Assembly: GCA_003144275.1 (NCBI GenBank)
Contig: NJBF01000006.1
Location: 77,677-109,676, forward strand
From: Candidatus Heimdallarchaeota archaeon B3_Heim
Lineage (GTDB): Archaea > Asgardarchaeota > Heimdallarchaeia > Hodarchaeales > Hodarchaeaceae
Direction: 5' to 3'
DNA: 32,000 bases
A program made the translations under genes and the position numbers. This document shows positions 2,452 to 29,634 of the stretch, one piece after another; the stretch's first letter is position 1; each line of letters opens with the position of its first letter. The notes below the pieces were generated by a model. The model worked only from the letters and a program-made list of their open reading frames with translations. It did no database searches and was not told where the DNA came from.

Positions 2452-3687
2452 TCAGTTAAGAAAAGCATTTAAATACTTAATAAATGGGAATGCAAGAGTC
2501 ACCTTTAGTGGAACACGACAATGAACCACGGCATTCACATCTGACGATTTTAACCTATTCAGGTACCATTGAACTTGACTATCACGTCCAGATGATATTT
2601 TATCGAACAGTCGTCTTAATTTATATGCACGTGTGAACATTGTCATCATCTGTTCTTTCCATTTAGTCTGATAATCAAGAAGTGATCCATTTCCAGTTAG
2701 ATAATTATGGATTGATTCTGCAACAATAGATCCAGCTACCATAGATGTTGGTATACCACCTCCAACGCTGGAAACAACTTGACATGCGGAATCCCCTACT
2801 AATAGTGTATTTGACTGTTCATCAACGGTTTTTTTCAGCGGTAATCCGACTGGGACAAGACCTCCAATTGTCGAGTCGATTGTAGCTGACTGTAACAATT
2901 CACTTACGAATGGATGCTCTGAGGTAAAATTTTCCAATGCTTTGGATACTGTGATTTTGCCTTTAGTCATGGGGGTTCGTAGTCCAACTCCTACATTGGC
3001 AGTATTTCCATTTTTCGGAATCACCCAAGCATATGCTCCTGGAGCGTAGTTCTCCCCGAAAAACATCTGTATATCTGTGGGATCATAATCTGGGGAATCT
3101 ATGTTGGTCATTACATGTTGTTTAGCATAAACAAAATGCTCTGTATTCCTTTTTTCAGAGAGCCCAGTCCATCTAGCTATTCGGGATCGGGCACCATCTG
3201 CTCCAACAATTACTTGTGCTTTTATAGGTTCAGGAGTTGATCCCTCACGGGAAATCCAAACGGAATTCTTGACCTTGTTTACAGCTCGCGCCGATCTCCA
3301 AATCTGTGCTCCAGCTTTTTCAGCAGAAATAAGTAAATCTTCATTCCAAGCTCCCCGATGTAATGTATATCCTTCAAAAGGAGTTTGGATGATTTTTCCC
3401 ATCGGGGAATGAAAACTTATTCGGTTAGTTCTGGAACTTATGTATTTTGATTCAAAGGTATAAAAATTAAGTGCATCGGGAACATCAGGAGTGAGAATAG
3501 CCATTTCCTCTGGAGAGGGCATAAATTCTCCACATTGCACAGGGAAACCTGGTCGTTCTCGTTTGTCTATACCAAGTATTGAAAGGTCTTTGCCTGCTAT
3601 TTTTGTTAAGTTTTTCAACGTGGATGCTCCAGCTGGACCTAATCCTACAACTAGCACATCAACTTTCATGATCATTGTTCCCAACAA
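2452..3687 (-). CDS. Geranylgeranyl reductase family FAD oxidoreductase (DGGR-like)
   Basis: GLGPAG dinucleotide-binding motif, QCGE, PGAYAWVIPK (close to the PxxYxWxFP signature), LVGDSA...GGGI. The true start may be the ATG at 3675 or 3669. Confidence 0.88.
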   Translation of the reverse strand: MLGTMIMKVDVLVVGLGPAGASTLKNLTKIAGKDLSILGIDKRERPGFPVQCGEFMPSPEEMAILTPDVPDALNFYTFESKYISSRTNRISFHSPMGKIIQTPFEGYTLHRGAWNEDLLISAEKAGAQIWRSARAVNKVKNSVWISREGSTPEPIKAQVIVGADGARSRIARWTGLSEKRNTEHFVYAKQHVMTNIDSPDYDPTDIQMFFGENYAPGAYAWVIPKNGNTANVGVGLRTPMTKGKITVSKALENFTSEHPFVSELLQSATIDSTIGGLVPVGLPLKKTVDEQSNTLLVGDSACQVVSSVGGGIPTSMVAGSIVAESIHNYLTGNGSLLDYQTKWKEQMMTMFTRAYKLRRLFDKISSGRDSQVQWYLNRLKSSDVNAVVHCRVPLKVTLAFPFIKYLNAFLN

Positions 3688-3704: not shown

Positions 3705-5291
3705 TCAAGACTGAATGAAGTTGTTTGCAGCGTCAACGGCAAAATCAAAAATAGCTCCTGGGATCACACCGATGAGAATAATTAGAATCACTCCAATTCC
3801 AATAGCCATTGCATATGACATTGGGATTCGATAAGTTTTCATAGATTCAACATTGACTGTATGGGATTCAATTAGTTCTTCGGCTGGTGGATCGAGAATC
3901 ATTAATTTTATTACTCGTATGTAATAGAAAACAGATATTGCACTGTTGATTACTCCAATTATTGCTAACCAGATCAAATCAGCGTAAAGAGCAGAGAAAA
4001 AGATAAACAACTTGGAAATAAATCCAGCTAGAGGGGGAACACCCATTAAACTTAGAAGAGCTATTGTCATTGCAAAGACTATCCACGGATGCCGTTTCCT
4101 GAGCCCAGCATAGTCATTAATTTCCTCACTGCCTACAGAAAAGGAAACAACAATAACAACTGTAAAAGCAACAATCTTCATCACAGCGTGAGTCAGAATG
4201 TGGAACTCAGCTGCAGCAATTGAAAAACTTCCAACAGTTATATCAATGAGTCCTGTAATAGCTGCTGCAGGTTCATTTGCTGCGGCAGCTAATGCTATTA
4301 GTATATACCCCGCGTGTGCTATACTAGAGTAAGCCAACATTCTCTTGATATTAGTTTGAACCAATGCAACTAAGTTACCAAGAGTCATTGTTAAAACAGC
4401 CAATATAGCAAAGATCATTCCCCAAATTTCTCCTAAATCCGTTAATCCCACAACGACTATTCGCATTATTGCAGCAAAACCCATCGCTTTGGATCCAGCA
4501 GCAAGAAAAGTCGTGATAGCTGTAGGGGTTCCTTGATATACATCCACTGCCCACGCATGGAAAGGAACTGCAGCCATCTTATAACCAAAACCGACAAATA
4601 GAAACATCAGTGCCAATACATGTAAAGGAGAATAACTCGATAAATCTGCAAAAGAAGCGATTACTGTTTCTAGACTTGTGGGTGTGAGGGATCCTGTTGA
4701 GCTTGTGATACCATAAATGAGTGAAATTCCAAATAATATGAAGGCTGAAGACATTGCACCGATTAAAAAGAATTTCAACGCACTTTCGCTGGTTTCAGCT
4801 CTTGATTTCTGGTACGCTGCAAGAGAATATACTGGGAGAGAGCCCAGTTCCCAAGCTACAAATATTAAAAGTAGATCATTTGCTGCAACTAGAACCATCA
4901 TGCCAATAGTAGCCAGGATGAGAAGTGAGTAATAGACACCCAAATTGTAGTCGGTTTTCATATAGTCACTACTAGATATGGCTACGAAAACTAATACAAT
5001 GAGAAAAATAATTGCAAAGAATCGAAAGAAATCATCGATAATGAATAACCCAGAAGGATGGGTGTGTGTGTGTGTTGTTTGGACATCGAGGAAATCAACA
5101 GGATTCCCAAAAAGATAAGAAATATCACCATTTACACTTAAAATAACACTATAGAGTGAGAGAAATCCACCAATAATAGTGATAGGGGGAGTGAATCTCC
5201 TTGCTATATTGAACGCTTCAAGAAGAAGACATATGATCATAGTTCCTATTAATATTAGGAAGGGTAACAGTATAATGGCGATATTACTCAT
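3705..5291 (-). CDS. nuoN: Complex I-like antiporter-like subunit N
   Basis: AWELGS, SESALKFFLIG, YKMAAVPFHAW, KRMLAYSSIAHAGY, GVPPLAGFISK; AGGTGA RBS upstream. Confidence 0.95.
   Translation of the reverse strand: MSNIAIILLPFLILIGTMIICLLLEAFNIARRFTPPITIIGGFLSLYSVILSVNGDISYLFGNPVDFLDVQTTHTHTHPSGLFIIDDFFRFFAIIFLIVLVFVAISSSDYMKTDYNLGVYYSLLILATIGMMVLVAANDLLLIFVAWELGSLPVYSLAAYQKSRAETSESALKFFLIGAMSSAFILFGISLIYGITSSTGSLTPTSLETVIASFADLSSYSPLHVLALMFLFVGFGYKMAAVPFHAWAVDVYQGTPTAITTFLAAGSKAMGFAAIMRIVVVGLTDLGEIWGMIFAILAVLTMTLGNLVALVQTNIKRMLAYSSIAHAGYILIALAAAANEPAAAITGLIDITVGSFSIAAAEFHILTHAVMKIVAFTVVIVVSFSVGSEEINDYAGLRKRHPWIVFAMTIALLSLMGVPPLAGFISKLFIFFSALYADLIWLAIIGVINSAISVFYYIRVIKLMILDPPAEELIESHTVNVESMKTYRIPMSYAMAIGIGVILIILIGVIPGAIFDFAVDAANNFIQS
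5062..5075. repeat. (GT)7 dinucleotide tract inside nuoN, encoding THTHTH
   Basis: Read directly: gtgtgtgtgtgtgt. Confidence 0.9.
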
Positions 5292-5300
5292 TTTTTCATT

Positions 5301-5306
5301 TCACCT
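5301..5306 (-). promoter_or_regulatory. Archaeal-type Shine-Dalgarno site AGGTGA before nuoN
   Basis: tcacct on the + strand, 9 nt before the ATG. Similar GGTGA/GGAG sites precede nuoL, nuoJ, nuoH, nuoD and the TPR gene. Confidence 0.7.
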
Positions 5307-6878
5307 TTAGAATTGAGATTCGAAAAATGCTGTTGCTTCAGTCATCATATCTAGCAGCAATGCTGGGAAAAGTCCCAATATTAAAGTAAAGAGACTTAAT
5401 AATCCAAGTACGGAATATTGTGACCAATGGGATACATCATGGGCATGTGAAAGTTCAGGATTCTTATCACCAAAAACAGTTCTTTGTAACATCCAAAGAT
5501 AATATGCTGCTGTAAAGATAATTCCGAAAATAGCTATAAAAGCCAGAACTGGTACCCATTCAAAGAGAGCAATGAATACTAATAGTTCTGACCAAAATCC
5601 CGCAAGTCCTGGCAAACCTGCACTTGCAAATGAGGCAAAAACTAACACTGCCGCAGTTATAGGCATATGTTTGGCTATACCACGTAATTTAGGGATATCT
5701 CTAGTATGTGCAGAATGTCCTATTGTTCCAGCTATAAAGAACAATAAAGGAGATATGATTCCGTGAGCTATTTGCATAAATTGTGCTCCAGCGAATCCTT
5801 CCTCTGTTTGAGCAGCAACTCCAAGAAGAACGATTCCCATATGGCCAACACTACTGTAAGCTACAAGAGATTTCATATCTACCTGTCTTAAAGCAACCCA
5901 CGCACCATATAGCAAGGAAACAATTCCTATTACAGCTACTAACCAAGCAAATTCCGTTAAGGCGTGGGGTAGAAACCACCCACTCATACGCATTAGACCA
6001 TACCCACCCATTTTCAATAATAATCCAGCCAATATCATAGATCCAGGAGTTGGGGCTTCAACATGCGCTAAGGGAAGCCAAGTGTGAAAAGGTACGCTTG
6101 GTACTTTGACGATAAATCCAAACAGTAATGCCAAGAATATTAATAATACAAAAGTCTCTGCTCCAAAATCTATTTGTCTCAGGAGATCAAATGAGAAAGT
6201 TCCACCACCGCCTGTGACCTCTGGATAATCTGCTGACTTTAGCCAAATACCGATTATTCCTAACAGCATAACCATAGATGCTACATGTGTATATATGAAA
6301 AAGTAGATTGCAGCATATTCCCGTCGGGGTCCACCCCAAATACCTATTAGGAAGAACATTGGTACAAGCACCAATTCCCAAGCAACATAAAAGATTACAA
6401 AATCTGTAGCGAGAAAAGTACCCAAGACACCTGTCTCTAACAATAGAATCATTGCATAATAAGCAGGTTCTCTTTCATGAATATCCTTGAATGAAGCAAG
6501 TATTGCGATACAGAATATGAACCCACTTAAGAGAACTAAAGGCATGCTTAGCCCATCAACTCCAAGTGAAAAATTCATTCCTATCGATTCAATCCAAGGA
6601 ATATTTACCACTAACGTCCAACCACCGCTAGCAAGAGCATCACGATTTGCATGCATAGAAGAATCCAATAATGAATGGTTTTCATACATCATCCAAGCCA
6701 ATATAGCAAGACCAAACGTGATTACGCTCATTAGCAGCGCAAAATAGCGTGCAAATCCTTCACGCACACGGCCAATAAACCATGTGGGTAGTGCAGCTAG
6801 AATTGGTAGAAGGAAAATAAGAGTTAACACTCCGATTCCGTTTTCACCAAATAATATTTGTGTTATCATTGTCTTCAA
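5307..6878 (-). CDS. nuoM: Complex I-like antiporter-like subunit M
   Basis: FYVAWELVLVPM, VKVPSVPFHTWLPLAHVEAPT, LLKMGGYG, GLPGLAGFWSE; conserved charged residues of the proton path are present. Confidence 0.96.
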   Translation of the reverse strand: MKTMITQILFGENGIGVLTLIFLLPILAALPTWFIGRVREGFARYFALLMSVITFGLAILAWMMYENHSLLDSSMHANRDALASGGWTLVVNIPWIESIGMNFSLGVDGLSMPLVLLSGFIFCIAILASFKDIHEREPAYYAMILLLETGVLGTFLATDFVIFYVAWELVLVPMFFLIGIWGGPRREYAAIYFFIYTHVASMVMLLGIIGIWLKSADYPEVTGGGGTFSFDLLRQIDFGAETFVLLIFLALLFGFIVKVPSVPFHTWLPLAHVEAPTPGSMILAGLLLKMGGYGLMRMSGWFLPHALTEFAWLVAVIGIVSLLYGAWVALRQVDMKSLVAYSSVGHMGIVLLGVAAQTEEGFAGAQFMQIAHGIISPLLFFIAGTIGHSAHTRDIPKLRGIAKHMPITAAVLVFASFASAGLPGLAGFWSELLVFIALFEWVPVLAFIAIFGIIFTAAYYLWMLQRTVFGDKNPELSHAHDVSHWSQYSVLGLLSLFTLILGLFPALLLDMMTEATAFFESQF

Positions 6879-6889
6879 CCTTCAATTTT

Positions 6890-9178
6890 TTAGAGGGGAA
6901 ATACCCCTGCCATTAGTAAACCGATGATAATAATTGCAATTGCACCCAGTAAGGAGTACAGTGCGTAATTTTCGACTACTCCCGTTTGAACGTGACTCAT
7001 ATATCTCCCAGTCTTCATAACACCTTTAGCTGAGCCCCTTATTAACCCTTGATCGATGATTCGTTCATCTGTTGCTTTTGCTAAACTACACAATGCAACT
7101 GAGGCACGACCTGTTAAACGAACCAAACCATCTATAACCGTATCATCCCACCACTTAGAAAAACCACAGAGCGCAAAACCAATTCTTCCAGTTAATCTCA
7201 CAGCTCGATCGAAGACGTTCTTCTCGATCCAGTTCATAGCTTCACAATAGTACTCATAGAATAGATGAACAAGTTTCAGATATAGGGTATCAATATAATA
7301 TCCATTTTCCAATATTAGTTGAACTCCCCGACCAGGTGCTGAAGCCTTTACTCCACGTACAAAAGATCGAACTTTCAATTGAATATTTGTAATTCTATCA
7401 GATGGTGCCTCAGGTACATCTATTTTGAAGGAAGGTTCATCTTTTGGAAAAGTGATTTGAGCTTTTGCACGGGGGTAGTAAATCAAATACGCTAGAGCTA
7501 TTCCAATAGTGGTTACAAAAATTGAGGTGCTACCTGTCTCAAAATCGAAAACTGGCCCTATTCCACCTTCTAACCATTCCACCATATGGTGTTCAATATT
7601 AAAAAGTGAAAAAAGCTCAATTTTGAACGTACTTCCTATCAGACCAACTGAATATATTCCCGCTAATACCAATGATACAATAGCTAGGATCCATAATGGT
7701 TTAGTCATCCATCCATCAGATTCATGAATATCATGACCAGAACGATTTTCGCCTGGAAAAACTAGGAACCACATTCTAGAAATGTAAAATGCTGTTAAGA
7801 ACGCTGTAATTAACGCAGAAAGCCAAACTAGCGCGATTAATGGTTCATGTACTATATGGTTCCTTGCATGTGAAATAATTGCATCTTTGCTAAAGAATCC
7901 ATTTCCGAAGCCTGCAAGTGAAAGTGAGCCTATAGCCATAACCTTCCAAGTATCAGGCATATGTGATTTTAAACCACCCATTTCACGAATATCTTGCGTT
8001 CCAGATCCATGAATGACTGAACCTGCAGATAAAAAGAGCAAAGCTTTGAATATCCCATGGTTAATGACATGAAAGATAGCGACCGCCATTCCTCCCACAC
8101 CTAAACCTATGGTCATATATCCTAGCTGGCTGATAGTGGAAAACGCCAAAATACCTTTGATATCTGTCTGAACTAATGCAATAGAACCGGCCATGATTGC
8201 TGTAATTCCACCAATGAGAGCAACAATTAACAAAGCATTTGAATCTGCAAATTCAAAAACGAAGTAACTACGAGCTATCAAAAAAATTCCTGCTTTCACC
8301 ATCGTTGCGCTGTGGATTAGACAGCTAACCGTAGTAGGTCCTGCCATGGCGTCAGGTAGCCATACATGAAGTGGGAATTGAGCTGATTTTCCAACAGCTC
8401 CACCAAAAATTAATAAGGCGATGAATGCGAACAATCCGGGATCAAAGATTCCAGGAATTACTCCTGCTTCTATCATATGTCTAATTTCAATAAAATCGAA
8501 AGAGGGATGATATATTCCATGATATCTTTGTGAAGCTGCAACAGTAACGAGATAAAGCAATATTATTCCTGCGAATAAGAAGATATCTCCTATCTTGGTT
8601 GTCAAGAACGCCTTTTTAGCTGCCGAAGCTGGATGAGGTTGTCCTTCTGGTACAACTTCTTTTTCATAGAAATAACCAATTAGTAAGTAACTGCAAACAC
8701 CCATAAGTTCCCACCCGATGAAGAGTTGAATAAAATTTGGGGACAAACAAAGGGTTAACATTGCTGCTGCGAACATGTTTATTTCAGCATAATAACGAGG
8801 AGACCCCTCGTGAGACATATAACTTCTACTATACACAACCACTAGAAAAGCTATAAGAGCAACCATTAAACTTACAATAACTGAAAGAGGATCAAGAAGT
8901 ACACCAATTTCTACTTTTACATCCCCTACTTGAAACCATGTTGTGACAATTTTTTCTTCTATATGTGCATGATCAAAGAGAAGACGAAAAATAATTTCGC
9001 CCGAAACAAGTAGAGTTAAAATAAGACTTCCGCCAGTTGCAATAAGTGCAATCAAATTTCCGTGTGCTTTTTTGTCATAATATTTTCCAATAAACAGTAC
9101 AATGAAGGATGCTACAATTGGAATAATTGGTATAAGAATAGCAAAATTGCCAAAAATCAGTATTACTTCTTCAGCCAT
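6890..9178 (-). CDS. nuoL: Complex I-like antiporter-like subunit L, unusually long (762 aa) with an extended lateral helix
   Basis: FIGWELMGVCSYLLIG, GKSAQFPLHVWLPDAMAGPT, HSATMV, FKALLFL, FFSKD; C-terminal YYID...QTG...Y plus final TM. Confidence 0.96.
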   Translation of the reverse strand: MAEEVILIFGNFAILIPIIPIVASFIVLFIGKYYDKKAHGNLIALIATGGSLILTLLVSGEIIFRLLFDHAHIEEKIVTTWFQVGDVKVEIGVLLDPLSVIVSLMVALIAFLVVVYSRSYMSHEGSPRYYAEINMFAAAMLTLCLSPNFIQLFIGWELMGVCSYLLIGYFYEKEVVPEGQPHPASAAKKAFLTTKIGDIFLFAGIILLYLVTVAASQRYHGIYHPSFDFIEIRHMIEAGVIPGIFDPGLFAFIALLIFGGAVGKSAQFPLHVWLPDAMAGPTTVSCLIHSATMVKAGIFLIARSYFVFEFADSNALLIVALIGGITAIMAGSIALVQTDIKGILAFSTISQLGYMTIGLGVGGMAVAIFHVINHGIFKALLFLSAGSVIHGSGTQDIREMGGLKSHMPDTWKVMAIGSLSLAGFGNGFFSKDAIISHARNHIVHEPLIALVWLSALITAFLTAFYISRMWFLVFPGENRSGHDIHESDGWMTKPLWILAIVSLVLAGIYSVGLIGSTFKIELFSLFNIEHHMVEWLEGGIGPVFDFETGSTSIFVTTIGIALAYLIYYPRAKAQITFPKDEPSFKIDVPEAPSDRITNIQLKVRSFVRGVKASAPGRGVQLILENGYYIDTLYLKLVHLFYEYYCEAMNWIEKNVFDRAVRLTGRIGFALCGFSKWWDDTVIDGLVRLTGRASVALCSLAKATDERIIDQGLIRGSAKGVMKTGRYMSHVQTGVVENYALYSLLGAIAIIIIGLLMAGVFPL
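6995..7228 (-). repeat. Three degenerate 26-aa tandem units in the NuoL lateral helix
   Basis: VFDRAVRLTGR / VIDGLVRLTGR / IIDQGLIRGSA; the conserved Asp codons lie at 7208, 7130 and 7052, exactly 78 nt apart. Confidence 0.88.
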
Positions 9179-9196
9179 GATTTGTCACCCGAGTTT

Positions 9197-9508
9197 TTAT
9201 CCTTTCAATGATTGAAAGTCTGTTGCCTCCACTGTTCCATGATTACGATAAACGGACAAAATAATTCCCAATCCTACTGCTGCTTCTGCAGCTGCCAATG
9301 CTATGCTAATAATTACTGCTATTTGTCCTGTTACAAATCCTACATCATTATAAAGTGCAAAAATTGCAAAATTGATATTCGCCGAGTTCAACATTAATTC
9401 TACTGCAATAAGCATACGTATTGCTGATTTAGATTTAATAAAACCTGCTAAACCAATGAAAAATAATAATAATGCTATACCTACAAAAATTGAAGCATCT
9501 GCGATCAT
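9197..9508 (-). CDS. nuoK: Complex I-like subunit K
   Basis: 103 aa, 3 TM, AVELMLNSAN and AAAEAAVGL. Confidence 0.95.
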   Translation of the reverse strand: MIADASIFVGIALLLFFIGLAGFIKSKSAIRMLIAVELMLNSANINFAIFALYNDVGFVTGQIAVIISIALAAAEAAVGLGIILSVYRNHGTVEATDFQSLKG

Positions 9509-10074
9509 AGATCCTCAACCTCCTTCTTTACAAGATAGACACTTCCAAGCATTGCTCCTAACAGTAACAATCCTAAAGTGAGAATTGTGCCTCCGTGCGT
9601 AGTAAACATTTGTTCAGCCAAGTTACCTATTAACACGTTGTCAAAATTTTCAACATCTTTTGCAGCTAAATCTTGAAGAGCCCAAAAAACACTACTTACC
9701 TGAGTGAGAACATATGCTGTAATCATGAATAACAAAAATGCTCCAGCAAAGCTTAAGCGCCAATCCATCAATTTTCCTGAACCTGGTTTTTCAAACATGG
9801 CATCTTTCCCTGATAACGAAATAGCGAATAGCATTAAGATTGTAATACCGCCAGCGTAAACAATTATTTGTATAACCAATAATAATGCAGAGCCAGCATA
9901 AAGCAAGAAAATCATAGCAACTCCGAGGAGACAGAATATTAGCCATACAACTGCGTGATAGACACTTTTAACGGAAACTGCGAGGTATGCAGAGCCAGTC
10001 GTATATATGACGAGTAAAAATAATACAAAATATTCTAACAGTTCAAATAATTCAGGTGGGATCAAATAGGCCAT
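9505..10074 (-). CDS. nuoJ: Complex I-like subunit J
   Basis: QIIVYAGGITILMLFAISL motif; hydrophobic; stop overlaps the nuoK ATG. Confidence 0.92.
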   Translation of the reverse strand: MAYLIPPELFELLEYFVLFLLVIYTTGSAYLAVSVKSVYHAVVWLIFCLLGVAMIFLLYAGSALLLVIQIIVYAGGITILMLFAISLSGKDAMFEKPGSGKLMDWRLSFAGAFLLFMITAYVLTQVSSVFWALQDLAAKDVENFDNVLIGNLAEQMFTTHGGTILTLGLLLLGAMLGSVYLVKKEVEDL

Positions 10075-10076
10075 AA

Positions 10077-10733
10077 TTAACTCTCCTTATTAGTCTCCGT
10101 CAGTAGCTTTCGATTATCTTGATATTCTCTATCACCATACTTCTCTACATACTCTTTCCAGTGATCTGCATATTCTTTTGGATAATAGAGCTTGAACAAC
10201 CCGTATAAATCTTGATAATCATGATATAATTCTTCTTTATTGGACGTTGCTGCATCAAATCCAGGTGTATGATGTAATGCATCATACTTACACGCTTCTA
10301 CACAAAAACCGCAGTAAAGGCATCTCCCGATGAAAATTTGTGGGTGTAACAACGGTCGGGGGGATTTTCCTTCACGAGCTTTTTGTTTTTCTACCCAATG
10401 TGCTGGAGTAGGGGTAATTTCAACCATTTCTATGCATTTATTTGGACAAACTCGTTCACAGGCTTTACAACCTGTACAGTTTGGTGCATTTAAACCAATT
10501 AATCCCCGAGAATTTGGTGAGATGTGGGGTGTTGCTTCAAACACATCGGAAAATGTTAATTCTCGATCAAGGATAGTTTGACCCTTTTCAGCCAATGCTT
10601 CTGGGAAATAGATTGTATCCTTATTCCGACGATCACCGTCATATATGGCAATCGGCTTTTTAAAGAGTAATCGCCCTACGTAAGCTAATGGCCGAGTTAT
10701 CAAGACATTAGGAATTAATTTGAAATTCACCAT
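10077..10733 (-). CDS. nuoI: Complex I-like 2x[4Fe-4S] subunit I
   Basis: CTGCKACERVCP and CLYCGFCVEAC motifs; position in the operon. Confidence 0.93.
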   Translation of the reverse strand: MVNFKLIPNVLITRPLAYVGRLLFKKPIAIYDGDRRNKDTIYFPEALAEKGQTILDRELTFSDVFEATPHISPNSRGLIGLNAPNCTGCKACERVCPNKCIEMVEITPTPAHWVEKQKAREGKSPRPLLHPQIFIGRCLYCGFCVEACKYDALHHTPGFDAATSNKEELYHDYQDLYGLFKLYYPKEYADHWKEYVEKYGDREYQDNRKLLTETNKES

Positions 10734-10734
10734 T

Positions 10735-11877
10735 TTAACTCACAACACCAAATAATGCTGGATTCATAAGAAACATAACGATAATTAAGAATATATTTAC
10801 AAAAGCAAGAGGTATTAGACGTTTCCAACCGATATCTAACAATTGATCTATTCTGACTCTCGGTAGGGCAGCTCTAACCCATATAAATATGAAAATAAAT
10901 GCCCAGATCTTTACAACAAGAATTGCTGTTGATAGTAAAGGGATACTTTCAATTGTGCTCGCTGGGATAAACGGTAGATAGGCCCCACCCCAAAAGAGGG
11001 ATACACCAATAAAGGCACCAATCAGCAGAATAAAGTATTCTGTTGCCATCGACATCATATAACGAAAGCCAGTTAATTCCGTTCGCCACCCCATGACTAA
11101 TTCTGCTTCTGCCTCGGGAATATCGAAGGGAATTCTTTCAGTTTCTGCAGCTAAAGACACCATAAATACTACAAATCCAATAGGCATGAAAATCATAAAT
11201 GGAAGTCCTGCAGGAGTATAGGTTTGTTGGTAGGCGATATCAACCAATGAAAATGAATTGGTTACTATTACTACTGCGCCAACAGACAAGATCAGGGGAA
11301 TTTCATAACTAATCATTTGAGCTGCTGATCTAAATCCTCCGAGTACTGAATATTTATTATTTGAAGACCATCCAGTTATCAAAACACCTACAGGATAGAG
11401 AGAGAACAGTGCAAAGATTAATAGAAAACCAACTGCAGGATCTGCTATAACTTGGGTTGCTCCAAGTGGAAGTAATGCTCCGAGCATAAATGGTGGAGCA
11501 ACAACGAATGCAAAAAAACCAATGTTAAAAGGAAATTTGTCCGCTTTTTCAGGTACGATATCTTCTTTCGAAAAAAACTTAAGAAACTCTGCTATATTTT
11601 GTAGAAGCCCAAACTTCCATGTTCGTCCGAAAAAATGCCCATAGTTGAAATCTATGAACACAGGGCCTCGTCTATTCATCATACGACCTACAAGTTTTCT
11701 TTCAAACCAAATTAGTAAGATAGTATTAACAATTAGGAATACCAAAATTGAGGTCATTTCTAAGCTATCGATTAAAGTTAAACGTAAAGAATCTTGAAAT
11801 TCAACCTGACCTGGTAAAATATCACTGATTAATCCGAGTAACCAGTCAGCAAACCCTTCATATATACCGTAACCCAT
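10735..11877 (-). CDS. nuoH: Complex I-like subunit H
   Basis: WFERK...RRGP, SNNKYSVLGGFRSAAQMISYE, ERIPFDIPEAEAEL, PRVRIDQL. Confidence 0.96.
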   Translation of the reverse strand: MGYGIYEGFADWLLGLISDILPGQVEFQDSLRLTLIDSLEMTSILVFLIVNTILLIWFERKLVGRMMNRRGPVFIDFNYGHFFGRTWKFGLLQNIAEFLKFFSKEDIVPEKADKFPFNIGFFAFVVAPPFMLGALLPLGATQVIADPAVGFLLIFALFSLYPVGVLITGWSSNNKYSVLGGFRSAAQMISYEIPLILSVGAVVIVTNSFSLVDIAYQQTYTPAGLPFMIFMPIGFVVFMVSLAAETERIPFDIPEAEAELVMGWRTELTGFRYMMSMATEYFILLIGAFIGVSLFWGGAYLPFIPASTIESIPLLSTAILVVKIWAFIFIFIWVRAALPRVRIDQLLDIGWKRLIPLAFVNIFLIIVMFLMNPALFGVVS

Positions 11878-11887
11878 CTTCTATCAC

Positions 11888-12976
11888 CTATCTATCGATT
11901 TCTCCCATGCAAAGATCTGCACTAGCTATAATTGGTGGAATATCAGCAACTTTGCCACCCGTTATCAAATGCGAAGTTAAACATAGATTGGAATATGCTG
12001 GTGATTTTATCTTCACACGGTAAGGGATTTTATCATCGTTCCCAATAATATAATATCCTGCTTCACCACGAGGATCTTCGGTTCTAAAATAAACTTCTCC
12101 TTGAGGGAGTCTCCTGGGTGCCTTCTGATTAATTTCACCTTCTGGAGGGAGATTATCTAAAGCTTGACGTATAATGTGAGTAGACTGTCTTATTTCCTCC
12201 ATTCTAATTTGGAATCGTGCTAAGCAATCTCCACCAGTTCGGACTGGAACCTCAAAATCCAGTTCAGGATAGACTAAATACGGTTCAATCTTTCGAATAT
12301 CACCCTGAACTCCTGATGCTCTTAAAACAGGGCCAGTTGCCCCAAGATTCAGAGCGTTCTCTTTTGAAAGAACACCTACCTCCACACTTCGAAGCATAAA
12401 AACCTTCGAATCTTCTAACATTGCGCTATATTCTTTTATACGCTCATCAAGATAGTAAGTCAGTTTTCTCGCATCATTAACAAAACCCTGAGGGAATTCA
12501 TGCTTCAGTCCTCCTACACGAAAATAATTATACATCATTCGAGAACCTGTAACATGTTCTAATAAGTCAAGAACATATTCTCTTTCCCGGTACGGGATAA
12601 CAAGCATTGTCAATACTCCCAAATCTCCCGCGTAAGCAGAAAGCCATGTGAAATGCGATGCAATTCGTTGAAATTCGAGCATTATCACTCGCATATATTG
12701 AGCTCGTTTGCTAACTTCCATCCCTAAAAGTTTCTCAATTGCCATTATGTAAGTCCCTTCCCATGACATTGCTGAGACATAGCATAATCTATCTGCAAGT
12801 GGCTGAAATGTATCATAAGGACGTGATTCAGCCATTTTTTCAATCATACGAAAAATATAACCAATGAGGATTTCTGAACCAACAACTTGTTCTCCCTCAG
12901 TCTTAACTTTTAATGTCCACAAACCATGATTAACTGGATGCTGAGGACCCATATGAATATACATTTGTTCACTCAT
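11888..12976 (-). CDS. nuoD: Complex I-like quinone-binding subunit D
   Basis: MGPQHPVNHG, DRLCY, GATGPVLRASGV, EDPRGE, C-terminal GEIDR. Confidence 0.96.
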   Translation of the reverse strand: MSEQMYIHMGPQHPVNHGLWTLKVKTEGEQVVGSEILIGYIFRMIEKMAESRPYDTFQPLADRLCYVSAMSWEGTYIMAIEKLLGMEVSKRAQYMRVIMLEFQRIASHFTWLSAYAGDLGVLTMLVIPYREREYVLDLLEHVTGSRMMYNYFRVGGLKHEFPQGFVNDARKLTYYLDERIKEYSAMLEDSKVFMLRSVEVGVLSKENALNLGATGPVLRASGVQGDIRKIEPYLVYPELDFEVPVRTGGDCLARFQIRMEEIRQSTHIIRQALDNLPPEGEINQKAPRRLPQGEVYFRTEDPRGEAGYYIIGNDDKIPYRVKIKSPAYSNLCLTSHLITGGKVADIPPIIASADLCMGEIDR

Positions 12977-12978
12977 GG

Positions 12979-13497
12979 TTAGACCTCCTTATTGGGTTGT
13001 GGTTTATAGGAAAAAGGTTTTTCTGGTAAAGTGTATGCTCTTCTCATAGGGTACAATTCGGAAATGTGTTTATGTTCATAATCGTCCCAATCTTCGGGGA
13101 GTAATAACCGTTTCAAGTTAGGATGCCCAGATACGTGAATTCCAAACATATCATACAGCTCCCTCTCGTGCCAATTCGCAGAAGCCCAGATGGATGTTAT
13201 TGAGGGAACTTGGGATTTATCTCGATCATCCAGCTTGACACGGACTTGGATGACCGTTGAATCTCCATCCCAGCGATCGATGTGATATACTACATCAAAA
13301 TGAGTTTCCCAATCAACTCCAGAAATAGCTTCCAAAGATGGAAATTCCAAATCCTGAGCTACAAAGGTCATTACCTCAAAAAGATTGTCAGAACTAGTTT
13401 TAATTTCAAGACGGGAATCAGCGATAATTTGAACATCATCGATTTTTCCTGAAAGTTTTTCCTGAATTTGCTTTCTGTGTTCCTCTATAGGCGTCAT
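12979..13497 (-). CDS. nuoC: Complex I-like subunit C
   Basis: ISGVDW, SANWHERELYDMFGI, GHPNLKRLLLPEDW. Confidence 0.95.
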   Translation of the reverse strand: MTPIEEHRKQIQEKLSGKIDDVQIIADSRLEIKTSSDNLFEVMTFVAQDLEFPSLEAISGVDWETHFDVVYHIDRWDGDSTVIQVRVKLDDRDKSQVPSITSIWASANWHERELYDMFGIHVSGHPNLKRLLLPEDWDDYEHKHISELYPMRRAYTLPEKPFSYKPQPNKEV

Positions 13498-14129
13498 TTC
13501 TCTTCTTCCTCCAGTAATTTGCCTTTAAGGATTATCCGATGATCTATCAAGGGAGGGGCTCTCTCATAGAACTCTCTAGGAAGCTCTCGAAGAGGTTCTG
13601 GGACATAAACACCATCTGCTTTTATTTTTTCTTGAAGACGATGAAGTCCAGCCCACATTGCTTCTGGTCTGGGGGGACAGCCTGGTACATAGATATCAAC
13701 AGGAATTACTTGATCAGTTCCTTCCAAAATTGTTGGAGCTTGCCAAAATGGACCTCCACTTATAGCACATTCTCCTGTAGCGAAAACCCACTTCGGTGCT
13801 GCCATCAAATCGTAAACGGTTCTCAATCGTGGAGCTGCTTTGATAGTCATTGGCCCATTAATCCATAGAACATCACAATGACGGGGACTTGCCCGAGCTA
13901 AAATTCCTATTCGCTCTGTATCATACCGAGAAGCCATTGTTGCAGCCATTTCAATAGCACAACATTTCATACCTAAAAATACTGGGTATAAACTGGCTCT
14001 TTGACTCCAATTCCTTAACCAATTCAGTATTACCGTCGTAAAATTTCGACTTTTCGTTAACACCACATTGGGCATTGGTTCATAGATTTCAAGCTCTCCA
14101 AGAGCTTTTAATTCTTTATATTCAGCCAT
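13494..14129 (-). CDS. nuoB: Complex I-like N2 [4Fe-4S] subunit B
   Basis: CCAIEM, ASPRHCD, GECAISGG, DIYVPGCPPRPEA. Confidence 0.96.
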   Translation of the reverse strand: MAEYKELKALGELEIYEPMPNVVLTKSRNFTTVILNWLRNWSQRASLYPVFLGMKCCAIEMAATMASRYDTERIGILARASPRHCDVLWINGPMTIKAAPRLRTVYDLMAAPKWVFATGECAISGGPFWQAPTILEGTDQVIPVDIYVPGCPPRPEAMWAGLHRLQEKIKADGVYVPEPLRELPREFYERAPPLIDHRIILKGKLLEEEEK

Positions 14130-14132
14130 GCT

Positions 14133-14501
14133 CTACACCCAAGACATTGTTCCCTTTTTCATCCAAAAGAATACCCCGAATAGCACTAAAGCTGCGAAAA
14201 GCCCCATGACGATCATAATTGTTACTTGATTTGTAACAATCCTAAAAGAATAAGCCCAAAGAAGAAAAAGAATTGTTAAGATGTCAAATACTACAAAAAC
14301 CACTGCAAAAGTAAAGAATTGGATATTAAATCGTACTTGGGCAGTACCAATTGGTTTTTCTCCACATTCGTAAGTTGCTGTTGACGCTTTTAACCGGGGG
14401 ATACTAGGTGAAAGAATCAGCTGGATTATTTTGATAGCTATTGGACTTGCGAGACCTGCAATTAAAAATAAACCGAAGTGTGTGATTTGCTCGTCATACA
14501 T
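14133..14501 (-). CDS. nuoA: Complex I-like subunit A
   Basis: YECGE, FVVFDI, 3 TM, 122 aa; first gene of the operon. Confidence 0.95.
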   Translation of the reverse strand: MYDEQITHFGLFLIAGLASPIAIKIIQLILSPSIPRLKASTATYECGEKPIGTAQVRFNIQFFTFAVVFVVFDILTILFLLWAYSFRIVTNQVTIMIVMGLFAALVLFGVFFWMKKGTMSWV

Positions 14502-26148: not shown

Positions 26149-29100
26149 ATGACAGAAACCGCACACGAAAAATTTAGATCCGAAATTTTACGTTCATCAA
26201 GATTTGAGGGACTGAGATCAAAAATTGCCATACCTTTGATTTCAATATTGCTGGCTGTTATTGCTGGTACAATTATTCTATTGTTAATGGCAGAGGATCC
26301 AATCACTTCCTTTTATTACATGACATTTGGAACCATGAAACCAGTCAAAATTGCTGATACACTATTTAATGCGACTCCATTATTATTTACTGGGCTATCT
26401 GTTGCGGTGGCTTTTCGTGGGGGTATGTTCAACATCGGGACAGAAGGACAAATGATTTTTGGAGCTTTTTGTGCGGCATTGGTGGGTTTTGGCCTCCCAA
26501 TGTATTTTAATATCAATTTACCTCCGTATGTTCTGATACCATTACTCTTATTGGTTGGAATGGTAGGAGGAGCTATCTGGGCTCTCGTACCAGCCATTTT
26601 AAAGGCAAAAACAGGGGTACATGAAGTCATTACAACGATTATGATGAATTATGTTGCTTTGACGCTAATGGTTTTTTTTGTTGGTGATCTCAGTTCTCCC
26701 TTTATTGATAGGAAATATCATGGAAATGTATCTCCACAATCTCCAAAAATAGCTGAAACAGGTGTTCTTGACAAAATCTCAACCACATTCATAGGAACTG
26801 TCGTTGAATTTTTATTTGCACCATTTAGAACCTCAAAGTTACATTGGGGTTTTGTTATTGGTATTATTGCCTGTTTTGTTATATTTATTCTGTTATGGAA
26901 AACTCAACTTGGATATGAAACCAGAGCTGTAGGTTTCAATCAATCTGCGTCCAAATATGGGGGAATTAATGTCTCTAATAATCTTATCAAGGTCATGCTT
27001 ATATCTGGTGCACTTGGAGGGTTAGCCGGGGCAATAGAAGTAATGGCGGTTTGGGGAAGGTATGTAAATGGGTTTTCATCTGGATATGGTTTTGATGGTA
27101 TTGCAGTAGCCCTTATTGGAGGAAATCATCCGATTGGTGTGATTTTCGGGAGTATCCTGTTTGGTTGGTTAAAATCTGGTGGTCAGGTACTTCAAATCTC
27201 TGGTACTTCAAAAGATTTAGCTAATGCTTTAAAAGGGCTTATTGTATTCTTTGTAGCAGTTCCCTTGATTGCAAAATCCGTCCTTGATCATTTCAGCGAT
27301 AGTAAAGAATATGAAACTTATCAAGAGGCTAGGAATCAATTTAAAACCCACGAGGGGTTTGAGTCAATTTCTATGATTGAAAAAATTCGTGTACAATCAA
27401 TTCAATATACCAATTTCGTTGTAGGAATATTTTCCACTGAAATTATTCGAATTGTGAACTCTATTCGCGATAATATTAGAATTATCACTGCAATGTTAAT
27501 AATGGCCTTTGGAGCACTACTAGCAGGCTTGATTGCGTCAACACTCGCCCCCTCTATTCAAGAAATTGGAGACAACTTATTTTCTCCGATTTCAGCTCAA
27601 ATTACAAAAATTGAGTTCTTAATACCAATTAATGATTTTCTGACAAACATATTCTCAATTGAAACACTATTTTCAATCCTTCTATTTCTCACTTCTGCAT
27701 ACGGGTATTTTTGGGTGAACCGTTTTGAGAATTCGAAATATTATCGGCGAATGTTCCTGTTCTTTCTAGGTATATTCGGCATAAGTTCTTTCCTAGGTAT
27801 TAACACAATAATTGGCCAAGAACTTACATTACTAGTATTTACTTTAATAATCATGGGTTTTATTGTATATCAGGAATATCTTGCCATTCAAACCAAACCT
27901 GTTGAACAAAGGAGTTTAGATAATTTACAATACACCCCTCAACAGAAAATTGCAATAAGAATTTATTCCTTATTCTCTGGAATCGTAGTTCTATTAATAA
28001 TTGCCTTAATTTACTTAAGTCCTGGTATCATTCCCATTCCGTTTGATTTTGGAGAAGAAATTAAAATAGGGGAGACTTTTGATTTCTTTTTCTTTTCTCT
28101 GAATAATTATGGAGCACTTCTTGGAATTGTGGGATTGGTTTTCTTAATCATCTGTTTTATCGTAATGCTGCGAATTCAATTACCACGAAATCATCGATTA
28201 TCTTATATATTCAACATTCTAGCGTTGATATTCTTTTTCTTCGCTGTTTCAGGTGTGTATAATTTAAATGCTACACTGTTATTCACAATGACCCTTTCCA
28301 TTGCGGCACCAATTGGTTTGGCATCATTAGGAGGAATGTTTTCAGAAAAATCAGGAGTAGTTAATATAGGTCTTGAAGGAATGATGCTAACAGGCGCATT
28401 CGTATCCGTTTGGTTAACATATGAAACTGGAGACCCTTGGGCTGGAATAATTGGTTCTATCGTTGCTGGAGGATTAATAGGTCTTTTACACGCAGTAGCA
28501 TCAATAAAATATCGTGCAGATCAAGTAGTAGTAGGTGTAGCTATTAATCTTCTTGCCTCTGCACTTACTACACTAGGTTTAATCGCTGTATGGAATGTAC
28601 GAGGAACCAGTCCCACGGTAACCAGTCTAACCAATATCAGAATTCCTGTGTTAGAAGCAATTCCTATTATAGGTGATTTGCTCTATGCACTATCTGGGGG
28701 TAAGAATGGGCTATCACCGGTTGTTTATATTTTTCTTTTAGCAATTATAATTAGTTGGTGGGTCATCCAAAAAACTTCTTTCGGATTGAGAGTGCGTGCT
28801 GTGGGAGAACACCCCAGAGCTGCGGATACTCTTGGCATTAATGTATTTTTAATTCGATATATCTGTGTGATGTTGTCAGGTGTGTTAGCTGCGTTAGGTG
28901 GCGCACAACTCACACTAGGTACCGTTCCAATTTTCGTAAAGAATATGACATCTGGCCGTGGTTTTGTAGCCCTTGCAGCCTTAATTTTCGGTGCATGGAA
29001 CCCGATTGGGGCGGCTTTAGCAAGTCTACTTTTTGGGTTTGCATATGCTTTCCGTTTTCAATTAGATTCGTTGGGGATAAGTTGGTTATTCCAAGTAAAT

Positions 29101-29634
29101 TGGCTACCAGCTATAATGGCTGTGCTAGTACTGATAACTTTTATTCTATTAGGCTTAATACTTCTAAGATGGATCATTCGATTCCTTAAGATCGATATCC
29201 TTGGTAAAGAATCTCTTGAGCGTATTACGTTACTTCCTGCTCTTGTTATAGTCTTCATTACTATGCTAAATTTGTCGTACGTTGTTAACGAATGGATACT
29301 CACAGTTTTTCTTGACGATTTTCTTCCAGAAAAATACTCTATCCTTTTTCCACCATTAGAAGTCAATGTAATTGGGATAATTGTAACTTGGGTTGTGATT
29401 CAACTCCTCAGATCTGATCCTCAACAACTTTCTTCACGAATAAGGATCGTTGTGGGTTTAAGCATCTCTCTAACAATAATTGGGATTATTTTCATAATTG
29501 CTCAAACTGATTTATTCTTAGAAAAATTAACACCTACACTACCATTTCTAATTACAATGATAGCTGTCGCGACAGTCGCCAAACGTGGGAAACCACCTGC
29601 TGCTGACGGAATACCCTACATCAAAGAAGGTTGA
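26149..29634 (+). CDS. Fused double ABC permease (NupB-like plus NupC-like) with extra membrane domains, 1161 aa
   Basis: Domain 1: FNIGTEGQ, EVITTIMMNY, GFDGIAVALIG. Domain 2: SEKSGVVNIGLEG, AVGEHPRAADTLG, GRGFVALAALIFG, LPFLIT...PPAADGIPY. One uninterrupted ORF. Confidence 0.9.
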   Translation: MTETAHEKFRSEILRSSRFEGLRSKIAIPLISILLAVIAGTIILLLMAEDPITSFYYMTFGTMKPVKIADTLFNATPLLFTGLSVAVAFRGGMFNIGTEGQMIFGAFCAALVGFGLPMYFNINLPPYVLIPLLLLVGMVGGAIWALVPAILKAKTGVHEVITTIMMNYVALTLMVFFVGDLSSPFIDRKYHGNVSPQSPKIAETGVLDKISTTFIGTVVEFLFAPFRTSKLHWGFVIGIIACFVIFILLWKTQLGYETRAVGFNQSASKYGGINVSNNLIKVMLISGALGGLAGAIEVMAVWGRYVNGFSSGYGFDGIAVALIGGNHPIGVIFGSILFGWLKSGGQVLQISGTSKDLANALKGLIVFFVAVPLIAKSVLDHFSDSKEYETYQEARNQFKTHEGFESISMIEKIRVQSIQYTNFVVGIFSTEIIRIVNSIRDNIRIITAMLIMAFGALLAGLIASTLAPSIQEIGDNLFSPISAQITKIEFLIPINDFLTNIFSIETLFSILLFLTSAYGYFWVNRFENSKYYRRMFLFFLGIFGISSFLGINTIIGQELTLLVFTLIIMGFIVYQEYLAIQTKPVEQRSLDNLQYTPQQKIAIRIYSLFSGIVVLLIIALIYLSPGIIPIPFDFGEEIKIGETFDFFFFSLNNYGALLGIVGLVFLIICFIVMLRIQLPRNHRLSYIFNILALIFFFFAVSGVYNLNATLLFTMTLSIAAPIGLASLGGMFSEKSGVVNIGLEGMMLTGAFVSVWLTYETGDPWAGIIGSIVAGGLIGLLHAVASIKYRADQVVVGVAINLLASALTTLGLIAVWNVRGTSPTVTSLTNIRIPVLEAIPIIGDLLYALSGGKNGLSPVVYIFLLAIIISWWVIQKTSFGLRVRAVGEHPRAADTLGINVFLIRYICVMLSGVLAALGGAQLTLGTVPIFVKNMTSGRGFVALAALIFGAWNPIGAALASLLFGFAYAFRFQLDSLGISWLFQVNWLPAIMAVLVLITFILLGLILLRWIIRFLKIDILGKESLERITLLPALVIVFITMLNLSYVVNEWILTVFLDDFLPEKYSILFPPLEVNVIGIIVTWVVIQLLRSDPQQLSSRIRIVVGLSISLTIIGIIFIIAQTDLFLEKLTPTLPFLITMIAVATVAKRGKPPAADGIPYIKEG

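What the first reader, a model, noticed from the sequence alone, without database searches (positions are those of the whole stretch)
6986..7291. NuoL lateral helix is extended by two exact 26-residue units, but the operon has no extra pump subunit
Seen: there are 100 residues between YYID (aa 630) and QTG (aa 731). They contain three degenerate units with Asp at aa 657, 683 and 709 (period 26) and RLTGR repeated twice. Established, from memory: canonical NuoL/Nqo12 has about 46-50 residues here, with one such Asp about 22 residues before Q(T/S)G, which matches the last unit here. Complex I variants with an extra NuoM (2M complexes) carry an insertion of about 26 residues in this helix, one subunit width. 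Inference: two extra units could clamp two more antiporter-like subunits, giving a five-pump membrane arm with higher ion/electron stoichiometry. The operon has only single L, M and N genes, so the extra subunits would have to be encoded elsewhere, be repeated copies of NuoM, or have been lost; alternatively the helix binds a different partner.
Basis: partly seen in the sequence, partly recalled or inferred. Interest (0 to 1): 0.8.

Follow-up and report, generated by a model that had tools for sequence, protein, structure and literature searches.

The report
Lengthened NuoL strap helix, one nuoM
In this Asgard archaeon, the long "strap" helix that holds the proton pumps of respiratory complex I together is two 26-residue modules longer than normal, yet no extra pump genes exist, so what lies under the extra length is unknown.

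Summary
NuoL (window 6890-9178, minus strand, 762 aa) has 101 positions between the Asp of YYID and the Gln of QTG. Canonical NuoL has 48-50. The excess is two in-phase 26-residue modules. Modules 1 and 2 are 13/26 identical, and lag 26 is the only significant periodicity.

The lengthening is fixed across the Hodarchaeales-type clade. Forty-nine homologues show no indel in the helix, and the modules are about as conserved as the whole protein.

The five-pump reading has no support from gene content. The operon has one L, one M and one N. The genome's only other antiporter-like genes belong to a separate hydrogenase-like cluster with its own short helix. A closed genome of the same genus has exactly three such genes.

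Lengthened helices with a single nuoM are common. In a GTDB sample, at least 13 two-module NuoLs had one nuoM and 5 were true 2M cassettes. A 3-module and a 5-module bacterial NuoL also had one nuoM. This scan has noted the same mismatch many times on other DNA.

What fills the extra length is unresolved. My leading guess, at low confidence, is extra copies of the single NuoM. Two related genomes carry tandem nuoL paralogues that differ by exactly one module.

The parts
6890..9178 (-). nuoL, 762 aa (P0001), including the stop codon
   Evidence: PF00662 and PF00361. The AF2 model matches E. coli NuoL at Z 44.7, rmsd 2.1 A, model 10-650 = chain 1-562.
7301..7477 (-). Insertion of 59 aa between TM15 and the start of the lateral helix (aa 568-626): a beta-hairpin plus a helix of about 30 aa
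   Evidence: DSSP of the AF2 model shows E574-576, E585-587, H595-612 and H614-624. E. coli NuoL has almost nothing here, judged from the VIA ranges. Its length is conserved in the clade.
7223..7300 (-). Lateral-helix module 0 (aa 627-652), beginning with YYID
   Evidence: It superimposes on the start of the E. coli HL.
7145..7222 (-). Lateral-helix module 1 (aa 653-678), with Asp657 and RLTGR
   Evidence: 13/26 identical to module 2. Mean pairwise identity 0.70 and no indels across 49 homologues.
7067..7144 (-). Lateral-helix module 2 (aa 679-704), with Asp683 and RLTGR. This is the module absent from the 2-module paralogues and outgroups.
   Evidence: There is an exact 26-column gap in P0054-56, P0062, P0065 and P0073 relative to the 3-module forms. 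Conservation is 0.70.
6980..7066 (-). Lateral-helix module 3 (aa 705-733), with Asp709 and ending in QTG. It corresponds to the single canonical module.
   Evidence: Asp lies 22 residues before QTG, as in canonical NuoL. It is the most conserved module, 0.82.
6893..6979 (-). TM16 anchor (aa 734-762)
   Evidence: Hydrophobic helix at the end of H701-756 in the AF2 model. The canonical QTG..(E/Q)NY motif is kept.
5307..6878 (-). nuoM, single copy (523 aa from the TTG; the likely ATG start at 6869 gives 520 aa)
   Evidence: PF00361 and PF01059. Orthologues are named NuoM.
3705..5291 (-). nuoN, single copy (528 aa)
   Evidence: PF00361.
9197..14501 (-). nuoA-B-C-D-H-I-J-K, the rest of the 11-gene operon; there is no nuoE, F or G
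   Evidence: Pfam hits. A closed genome of the same genus has the same gene order.

Best explanation
Shown. The lateral strap helix of NuoL in this Hodarchaeales-type Asgard archaeon carries three D..(V/I)ID docking-type modules after the YYID module, where canonical NuoL has one. It grew by tandem duplication of a 26-residue module. The family's older state has two such modules, and this clade added module 2. Both length and sequence have since been kept under purifying selection. No extra pump gene accompanies the lengthening.

Inferred. The helix still works as the clamp and ruler of the membrane arm, and TM16 still docks at its usual site near NuoN/J/K. The two extra docking positions are most likely filled by further copies of the single-gene NuoM, giving an L-M-M-M-N arm whose length is set by the strap. 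The operon lacks the NADH module. If its donor is low-potential, such as ferredoxin, a higher ion/electron ratio or reverse operation is energetically conceivable. The donor was not tested.
For: The repeat is real and exactly phased.

Helix length is quantised in NuoLs of many phyla: 48-50, 74-77, 100-101 and 150. The 3-module and 2-module paralogues differ by exactly 26 columns.

The extra modules are as conserved as the protein overall (0.70 against 0.73). There are no indels across 107 helix positions in 49 sequences, and the module Asp residues are at least 90% conserved. That argues for specific contacts and not a floppy loop.

Internal control in the same genome: the L' of a cluster with only two antiporter-like genes has a YID-to-QSG distance of 21-22, about one module shorter than canonical.

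The AF2 model starts the helix on the canonical path (rmsd 2.1 A to E. coli up to residue 650). It predicts one continuous helix 626-693, longer than the whole canonical span, and shows no compact fold-back.

In E. coli, 6-7 aa insertions in this helix reduce pumping (PMC3274701), so length matters.

Two genomes keep tandem nuoL paralogues with 2 and 3 modules, one M and one N. The difference persists despite a gene-conversion tract in the core of the gene.
Against: There is no direct evidence that NuoM is present in more than one copy, and no solved complex I has repeated copies of one antiporter subunit (one search lists only canonical helices).

Bacterial NuoLs with 4-5 modules and a single nuoM would need 6-7 pumps under this model, which strains plausibility.

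The 26-residue quantum follows automatically from origin by module duplication, so quantisation alone does not prove a ruler function.

AF2 confidence in modules 2-3 is below 50, and the model coordinates could not be inspected.

In true 2M cassettes the second M is an old, distinct paralogue and not a recent copy of M. So there is no sign that a homomeric state preceded gene duplication.
Confidence: 0.35

Rival explanations
1. Three-pump arm with a meandering strap. The complex is an ordinary L-M-N arm. The two extra modules form a hairpin or a kinked surface excursion lying on the membrane or on the pumps. They add stability or lipid contacts without changing pump number.
For: Gene content is exactly L, M, N. 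The same mismatch is the majority state among 2-module NuoLs and also holds for 3- and 5-module bacterial NuoLs. This is more parsimonious than 4-7 pump arms built from one gene. Two extra modules could in principle go out and back with no net displacement. AF2 places a helix break at 694-700, between modules 2 and 3. Modules 1 and 2 are amphipathic (muH 0.40-0.47).
Against: The most common extension is a single module, which cannot go out and back. The extra modules keep the canonical docking signature (Asp motif, Gly) and strict length over deep divergence. AF2 predicts modules 0-2 as one straight 68-residue helix with no intramolecular packing.
Confidence: 0.3
2. A different partner. The extra length clamps membrane proteins that are not antiporter-like, such as lineage-specific accessory subunits, an electron-input module anchor or a supercomplex partner.
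For: No antiporter-like candidates exist. The operon lacks an input module. NuoL also has a clade-specific 59-aa insertion before the helix, which hints at extra contacts.
Against: No conserved unassigned membrane gene sits in or beside the operon in the window or in the closed genome of the same genus. The extra modules copy the pump-docking module and not a new sequence. Similar extensions occur in unrelated phyla with different neighbourhoods.
Confidence: 0.15
3. The strap overshoots NuoN. The arm is L-M-N, the helix stays roughly straight, and TM16 docks further along, beside NuoJ/K/A/H, so the strap spans the whole membrane arm.
For: From recalled structures, not measured here, the arm continues about 60-70 A beyond NuoN. 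One extra module (39 A) could be absorbed this way.
Against: Two extra modules (about 78 A) would overrun the end of the arm, and 4-5-module forms cannot fit at all. The TM16 motif QTG..ENY is canonical, which suggests the usual docking site. No tool result supports this reading.
Confidence: 0.1
4. One reading: two additional antiporter-like subunits encoded elsewhere in the genome complete a five-pump arm.
For: The own genome has two more PF00361 genes on another contig.
Against: Those two genes are the L' and M' of a complete separate hydrogenase-like cluster, and L' has its own short helix and TM16. A closed genome of the same genus with the same 3-module NuoL has only L, M and N. Genomes of the order have 3-7 PF00361 matches. 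All that can be placed are nuo L/M/N, L'/M' or a second nuoL.
Confidence: 0.03

Closest known systems
NuoL of '2M' complex I (Chadwick et al. 2018, ISME J 12:2668; read only through PMC9040806)
   Same: [quoted passage not shown] My sample includes true 2M cassettes with a 2-module helix and three M/N-type genes (Nitrospira L017 and L040, Acidobacteria L023 and L064, Verrucomicrobia L044).
   Different: Here there are two inserted modules, not one, and no second nuoM gene. The M2 of true 2M cassettes is a distinct old paralogue clade that has no counterpart here.
Complex_I_1 and Complex_I_2 of 'Ca. Manganitrophaceae' (Yu et al. 2022, PMC9040806)
   Same: Canonical gene content (single L, M, N) combined with an HL insertion. 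The authors left open whether these complexes can take extra pumps or are in evolutionary transition.
   Different: Those are bacterial with a single 26-aa insertion. This case is archaeal (Asgard), has a double insertion fixed in a clade, and has related tandem nuoL paralogues of two lengths.
Complex_I_3 of 'Ca. Manganitrophaceae' (five pumping subunits; PMC9040806)
   Same: This is the only described complex I proposed to have five pumps, the number this helix length would suit.
   Different: There the five pumps are five separate genes (two MrpD-like, two NuoM, one NuoN). Here only three genes exist.
Canonical NuoL/Nqo12/ND5 of solved complex I (E. coli 7p64, T. thermophilus 4he8, M. smegmatis 8e9g and others)
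   Same: Same fold for the core and the start of the helix (Z 44.7, rmsd 2.1 A over 545 residues). Same YYxD, D..IDG and QTG landmarks.
   Different: The solved chains whose helix could be read from the alignments (M. smegmatis, T. elongatus, P. denitrificans, T. thermophilus) have the short, one-module helix, and no listed chain looks extended. This protein has 52 more residues in the helix and 59 more before it.
Heimdallarchaeial complex-I-like group 4 [NiFe]-hydrogenase complexes (Appler et al. preprint, 10.1101/2024.07.04.601786)
   Same: Same organism group. The own genome's second cluster (contig C58) fits that description, with a fused NuoCD carrying a hydrogenase signature and a shortened membrane arm.
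   Different: That is a different complex. Its L' helix is shorter, not longer. The preprint does not discuss the helix length of the true nuo operon.

Membership tests
NuoL / Nqo12 / ND5 (complex I subunit L) | Proton_antipo_N and Proton_antipo_M domains | tested here: met
   PF00662 at 53 bits and PF00361 at 221 bits, both over their cut-offs.
NuoL / Nqo12 / ND5 (complex I subunit L) | C-terminal extension of TM15, long lateral helix and TM16 | tested here: met
   AF2 secondary structure shows H546-567, H626-693 and H701-756. VIA alignment to E. coli NuoL runs into the helix. The YYxD, D..IDG and QTG landmarks are present.
NuoL / Nqo12 / ND5 (complex I subunit L) | Position between nuoK and nuoM in a nuo operon | tested here: met
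   Gene order is A-B-C-D-H-I-J-K-L-M-N.
2M complex I (four-pump cassette) | In-phase insertion of about 26 aa in helix HL | tested here: met
   Two such insertions: the distance is 101 against 48-50.
2M complex I (four-pump cassette) | A second nuoM-type gene in the cassette | tested here: not met
   Only one gene lies between nuoL and nuoN. There is none elsewhere in a closed genome of the same genus. So this locus is not filed as 2M.
Single-nuoM complex I with lengthened HL (as Manganitrophaceae Complex_I_1/2) | Canonical L, M, N gene content together with an HL insertion | tested here: met
   The same state was found in at least 13 other sampled operons and in Asgard relatives.
Single-nuoM complex I with lengthened HL (as Manganitrophaceae Complex_I_1/2) | Insertion of one 26-aa module | tested here: not met
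   Two modules are inserted here. That is why I call it a variant and not a plain member.
11-subunit complex I without the NADH module | nuoA,B,C,D,H,I,J,K,L,M,N present and nuoE,F,G absent from the operon | tested here: met
   Pfam assignment of all eleven genes; the flanks encode GGR-like and radical-SAM proteins. The electron donor was not tested.

The most novel reading that the evidence does not exclude
Strap length sets pump number. NuoM from a single gene polymerises between NuoL and NuoN until the strap is filled, so this archaeon runs a five-pump complex I (about 6 ions per 2 e-). Relatives with two tandem nuoL paralogues (2 and 3 modules) could switch between four- and five-pump 'gears' by exchanging NuoL. 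This would be a variable-stoichiometry complex I in the closest known archaeal relatives of eukaryotes.
Probability: 0.2. Interest if true: 0.9.

Novelty: new variant of a known kind. Interest (0 to 1): 0.5.

Why it matters
The accepted reading of a longer NuoL helix is "one extra pump gene per 26 residues". This locus breaks that rule, as do many others found here and earlier in this scan. In Hodarchaeales the break is two modules wide, fixed by selection, and present in a closed genome with only three pump genes. There are two ways out. Complex I may build longer pump arrays from one gene, which would change how its ion/electron ratio is inferred from genomes. Or the strap may have a second, unknown role. 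Because the lineage is the nearest known archaeal relative of eukaryotes, the energy yield of its respiratory chain bears on models of the pre-mitochondrial host. The tandem nuoL paralogues that differ by exactly one module offer a natural experiment. On its own, however, the locus is one more example of a recurrent and still unexplained pattern.

Tried and rejected
1. Complex prediction of two copies of NuoM (residues 9-508, own alignment A2, collected). The verdict was 'no answer' (score 0.00 in both runs, controls not run). This counts neither for nor against M-M binding.

2. DNA-level tandem repeat search found nothing. The first repeat finder failed on a strand error and was not repeated.

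3. Order-of-events test: does M duplication follow helix lengthening? The M2 subunits of the 2M cassettes from Nitrospira, Acidobacteria and Verrucomicrobia form one old clade separate from ordinary M (FastTree). No such inference is possible.

4. Search for a solved structure with a 2-module helix. M. smegmatis NuoL, from a phylum where some NuoLs have two modules, turned out to be canonical. No solved chain with an extended helix was found by sequence.

5. Chadwick et al. 2018 could not be read; it is not held under its DOI or PMC id. Its content is cited only through PMC9040806.

6. Extra pumps encoded elsewhere: rejected.

The angle at the 694-700 break, and therefore hairpin against straight, could not be measured.

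8. A module-profile search of 1.84 billion representatives returned mostly C-terminal fragments. It shows that up to 5 modules occur, but gives no usable frequencies.

9. My regular expressions for the YYxD landmark mis-placed several sequences. The class counts quoted rest on visual checks of the printed sequences and are lower bounds.

Full report
WHAT IS THERE

The window carries an 11-gene complex I operon on the minus strand, in the order nuoA-B-C-D-H-I-J-K-L-M-N (3705-14501). It has no nuoE, F or G. The best homologues of NuoL and NuoM come from Hodarchaeales, Kariarchaeaceae and Heimdallarchaeota metagenome-assembled genomes. The organism is therefore an Asgard archaeon of the Heimdall group. 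Its assembly is 3.95 Mb in 103 contigs, 94% complete.

CHECKING THE OBSERVATION

NuoL is 762 aa. Its landmarks are as follows:
- YYID at 627-630 and QTG at 731-733.
- RLTGR at 661 and 687.
- Asp at 657, 683 and 709, exactly 26 apart.

Modules 1 (653-678) and 2 (679-704) are 13/26 identical, with z = 7.9. Lag 26 is the only positive autocorrelation lag, and no shuffle reached it. There is no detectable repeat at the DNA level, so the duplication is old.

In a sample of NuoLs from GTDB species genomes, the distance from the Asp of YYxD to the Gln of QTG falls into discrete classes. These are 48-50 (canonical, one D..IDG module), 74-77 (two modules), 100-101 (three modules, as here) and 150 (five modules). 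The observation and the canonical comparison are both correct.

IS THE LENGTHENING A STABLE, SELECTED FEATURE?

Yes. All 49 full-length homologues down to 64% identity have the same three-module helix. There is not one indel across 107 helix positions. Mean pairwise identity is 0.68-0.82 in the modules against 0.73 for the whole protein, and the module Asp residues are at least 90% conserved. A closed 4.9-Mb genome of the same genus (CP070695.1) has the same operon and a 757-aa NuoL.

A tree built without the helix places the three-module clade inside Asgard families whose NuoL has two modules (P0061-P0094). An alignment shows that the extra element is exactly 26 columns, corresponding to module 2. 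The clade therefore added one module to an already lengthened helix.

STRUCTURE

AF2 used a 57-sequence alignment and gave mean pLDDT 82.9. The core and the start of the helix superimpose on E. coli NuoL at Z 44.7 and rmsd 2.1 A, with model residues 10-650 matching chain residues 1-562. The helix therefore starts at the canonical place. Residues 626-693 are predicted as one continuous helix. A break follows at 694-700, then a helix 701-756 that includes TM16. Confidence falls below 50 after residue 688, and the coordinates could not be inspected.

A further 59 residues (568-626; a beta-hairpin plus a helix of about 30 residues) sit between TM15 and the helix, where E. coli has almost nothing. 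The solved complex I chains whose helix could be read from the alignments have the short helix.

ARE THERE EXTRA PUMPS?

No.
- The own genome has five PF00361 genes: L, M and N here, plus L' and M' on contig C58.
- C58 holds a complete separate complex-I-like cluster: a fused NuoCD with a hydrogenase signature over its cut-off, H, I, a split J, K, L' and M'. It fits the heimdallarchaeial hydrogenase-like complexes with shortened membrane arms described in 10.1101/2024.07.04.601786.
- Its L' has only 21-22 residues between YID and QSG, about one module less than canonical, and it pairs with only two pump genes. This is an internal example of helix length tracking pump number.
- The closed genome of the same genus has exactly three PF00361 genes.
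- Across 21 genomes of the order, matches number 3-7. Those that can be placed are nuo L/M/N, L'/M' or a second nuoL, never an extra nuoM beside the operon.

Extra pumps encoded elsewhere are rejected.

HOW UNUSUAL IS THE MISMATCH?

It is not unusual. Among sampled operons with a two-module NuoL and enough downstream sequence, at least 13 have a single M plus N. These include Acidobacteriota, Actinomycetota, Zixibacteria, Planctomycetota, Binatia and NC10. Five are true 2M cassettes from Nitrospira, Acidobacteriaceae and Verrucomicrobia. Other examples:
- A three-module bacterial NuoL (P0101) has one M and one N.
- A five-module NuoL (P0100) has one M and one N.
- Asgard two-module NuoLs (P0062, P0073) also have a single M.
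- A module-profile search of 1.84 billion representatives found up to five modules.

The literature already records a 26-aa insertion in the NuoL of gene-canonical Complex_I_1 and Complex_I_2 of 'Ca. Manganitrophaceae' and leaves it unexplained (PMC9040806). Earlier notes of this scan describe the same mismatch in more than 20 other genomes, including a first-stage note on a related Asgard genome. These agree with what I found independently.

A NEW DETAIL: TWO nuoL GENES OF DIFFERENT LENGTH

In two genomes of the same GTDB genus (G017 and G019), nuoL is missing from the operon, which runs A-K followed by M and N. Two nuoL genes lie in tandem elsewhere: one of 722 aa with two modules and one of 749-754 aa with three. 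They are 69% identical, and the only large indel is the 26-residue module.

Codons 64-190 are 95-100% identical at the DNA level, against 55-65% in the flanks. That indicates a gene-conversion tract. The length difference persists despite this. By the FastTree topology, the two-module copies nest inside the three-module clade, which suggests that a module was lost.

MECHANISM

Shown: the helix is a selected, quantised, duplicated docking element with no matching pump genes. The rest is inference.

I rank repeated copies of single-gene NuoM first, at 0.35. The arguments for it:
- The extra modules keep the docking signature and strict length.
- The helix shortens when a complex has fewer pumps.
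- E. coli data show that off-register length changes hurt pumping (PMC3274701).
- The two-length paralogues make sense as alternative rulers.

The arguments against it:
- There is no direct evidence and no precedent for repeated copies of one antiporter subunit.
- Four- and five-module forms would need six or seven pumps.
- Quantisation follows from the duplicative origin in any case.

The other readings rank as follows:
- A meandering strap on a three-pump arm: 0.30.
- A non-antiporter partner: 0.15.
- An overshooting strap that docks beyond NuoN: 0.10. This fails geometrically for two or more extra modules.
- Separately encoded extra pumps: 0.03.

The M2 subunits of true 2M cassettes form an old separate clade, so they say nothing about the order of events.

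VERDICT

This is a two-module variant of a known and recurrent phenomenon: a lengthened NuoL helix without an extra nuoM. It is fixed in the Hodarchaeales-type lineage. It is not a demonstrated five-pump complex. The open question is what lies under the extra strap. That question is real and testable by stoichiometry or structure.

Noticed in passing
G000 contig C58 = L006:7505-16627 (minus strand): A second, complex-I-like cluster in the same genome. It has a fused NuoCD (583 aa, NiFeSe_Hases hit over its cut-off), NuoH, NuoI, a NuoJ split into 94- and 91-aa genes, NuoK, L' (672 aa from the listed start) and M' (519 aa), then a 355-aa protein with no Pfam match. No NuoB-type gene was found among the neighbouring ORFs scanned. 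L' has a lateral helix about one module shorter than canonical.
   Followed up: partly
L010:1747-6601 (= G017 contig C50); operon on L011:5908-14722; also G019 contig C114: nuoL is absent from the nuo operon, with a 270-bp gap between nuoK and nuoM. Two tandem nuoL paralogues lie elsewhere, of 722 aa (2 modules) and 749 aa (3 modules). They are 69% identical and differ by exactly one 26-residue module.
   Followed up: partly
L010, codons 64-190 and 244-263 of both nuoL paralogues: DNA identity is 95-100% in these stretches against 55-65% in the flanks. This indicates a recent gene-conversion tract between the tandem nuoL copies that stops short of the helix region.
   Followed up: partly
window 7301-7477 (NuoL aa 568-626): A clade-conserved 59-residue insertion between TM15 and the lateral helix. 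It is predicted as a beta-hairpin plus a helix of about 30 residues. It might extend the strap backwards over NuoL itself.
   Followed up: no
window NuoL aa 645, 671, 697 (within 7088-7246): A conserved Cys recurs at the same phase in modules 0, 1 and 2 (period 26) across the clade. Its meaning is unknown.
   Followed up: no
window 2452-3687 (minus strand): A geranylgeranyl-reductase-family flavoprotein lies directly downstream of nuoN. The same synteny is seen in the closed genome of the same genus (L009:15540-16754), and a GGR-like gene lies near the L-M-N cluster of another Heimdall MAG (L093). An earlier first-stage note on another genome pointed out the same pairing.
   Followed up: no
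window 26149-29634 (plus strand): An 1161-aa ORF with two BPD_transp_2 permease domains follows a Bmp/PnrA-type binding protein and an ABC ATPase. It looks like a fused double permease of a nucleoside-type ABC importer.
   Followed up: no
L017, L040, L023, L064, L044 (true 2M cassettes): The second NuoM of 2M cassettes from Nitrospira, Acidobacteria and Verrucomicrobia forms a single deep clade apart from ordinary NuoM (FastTree). This suggests that the four-pump cassette spread as a unit and did not arise by repeated recent duplications in these lineages.
   Followed up: partly
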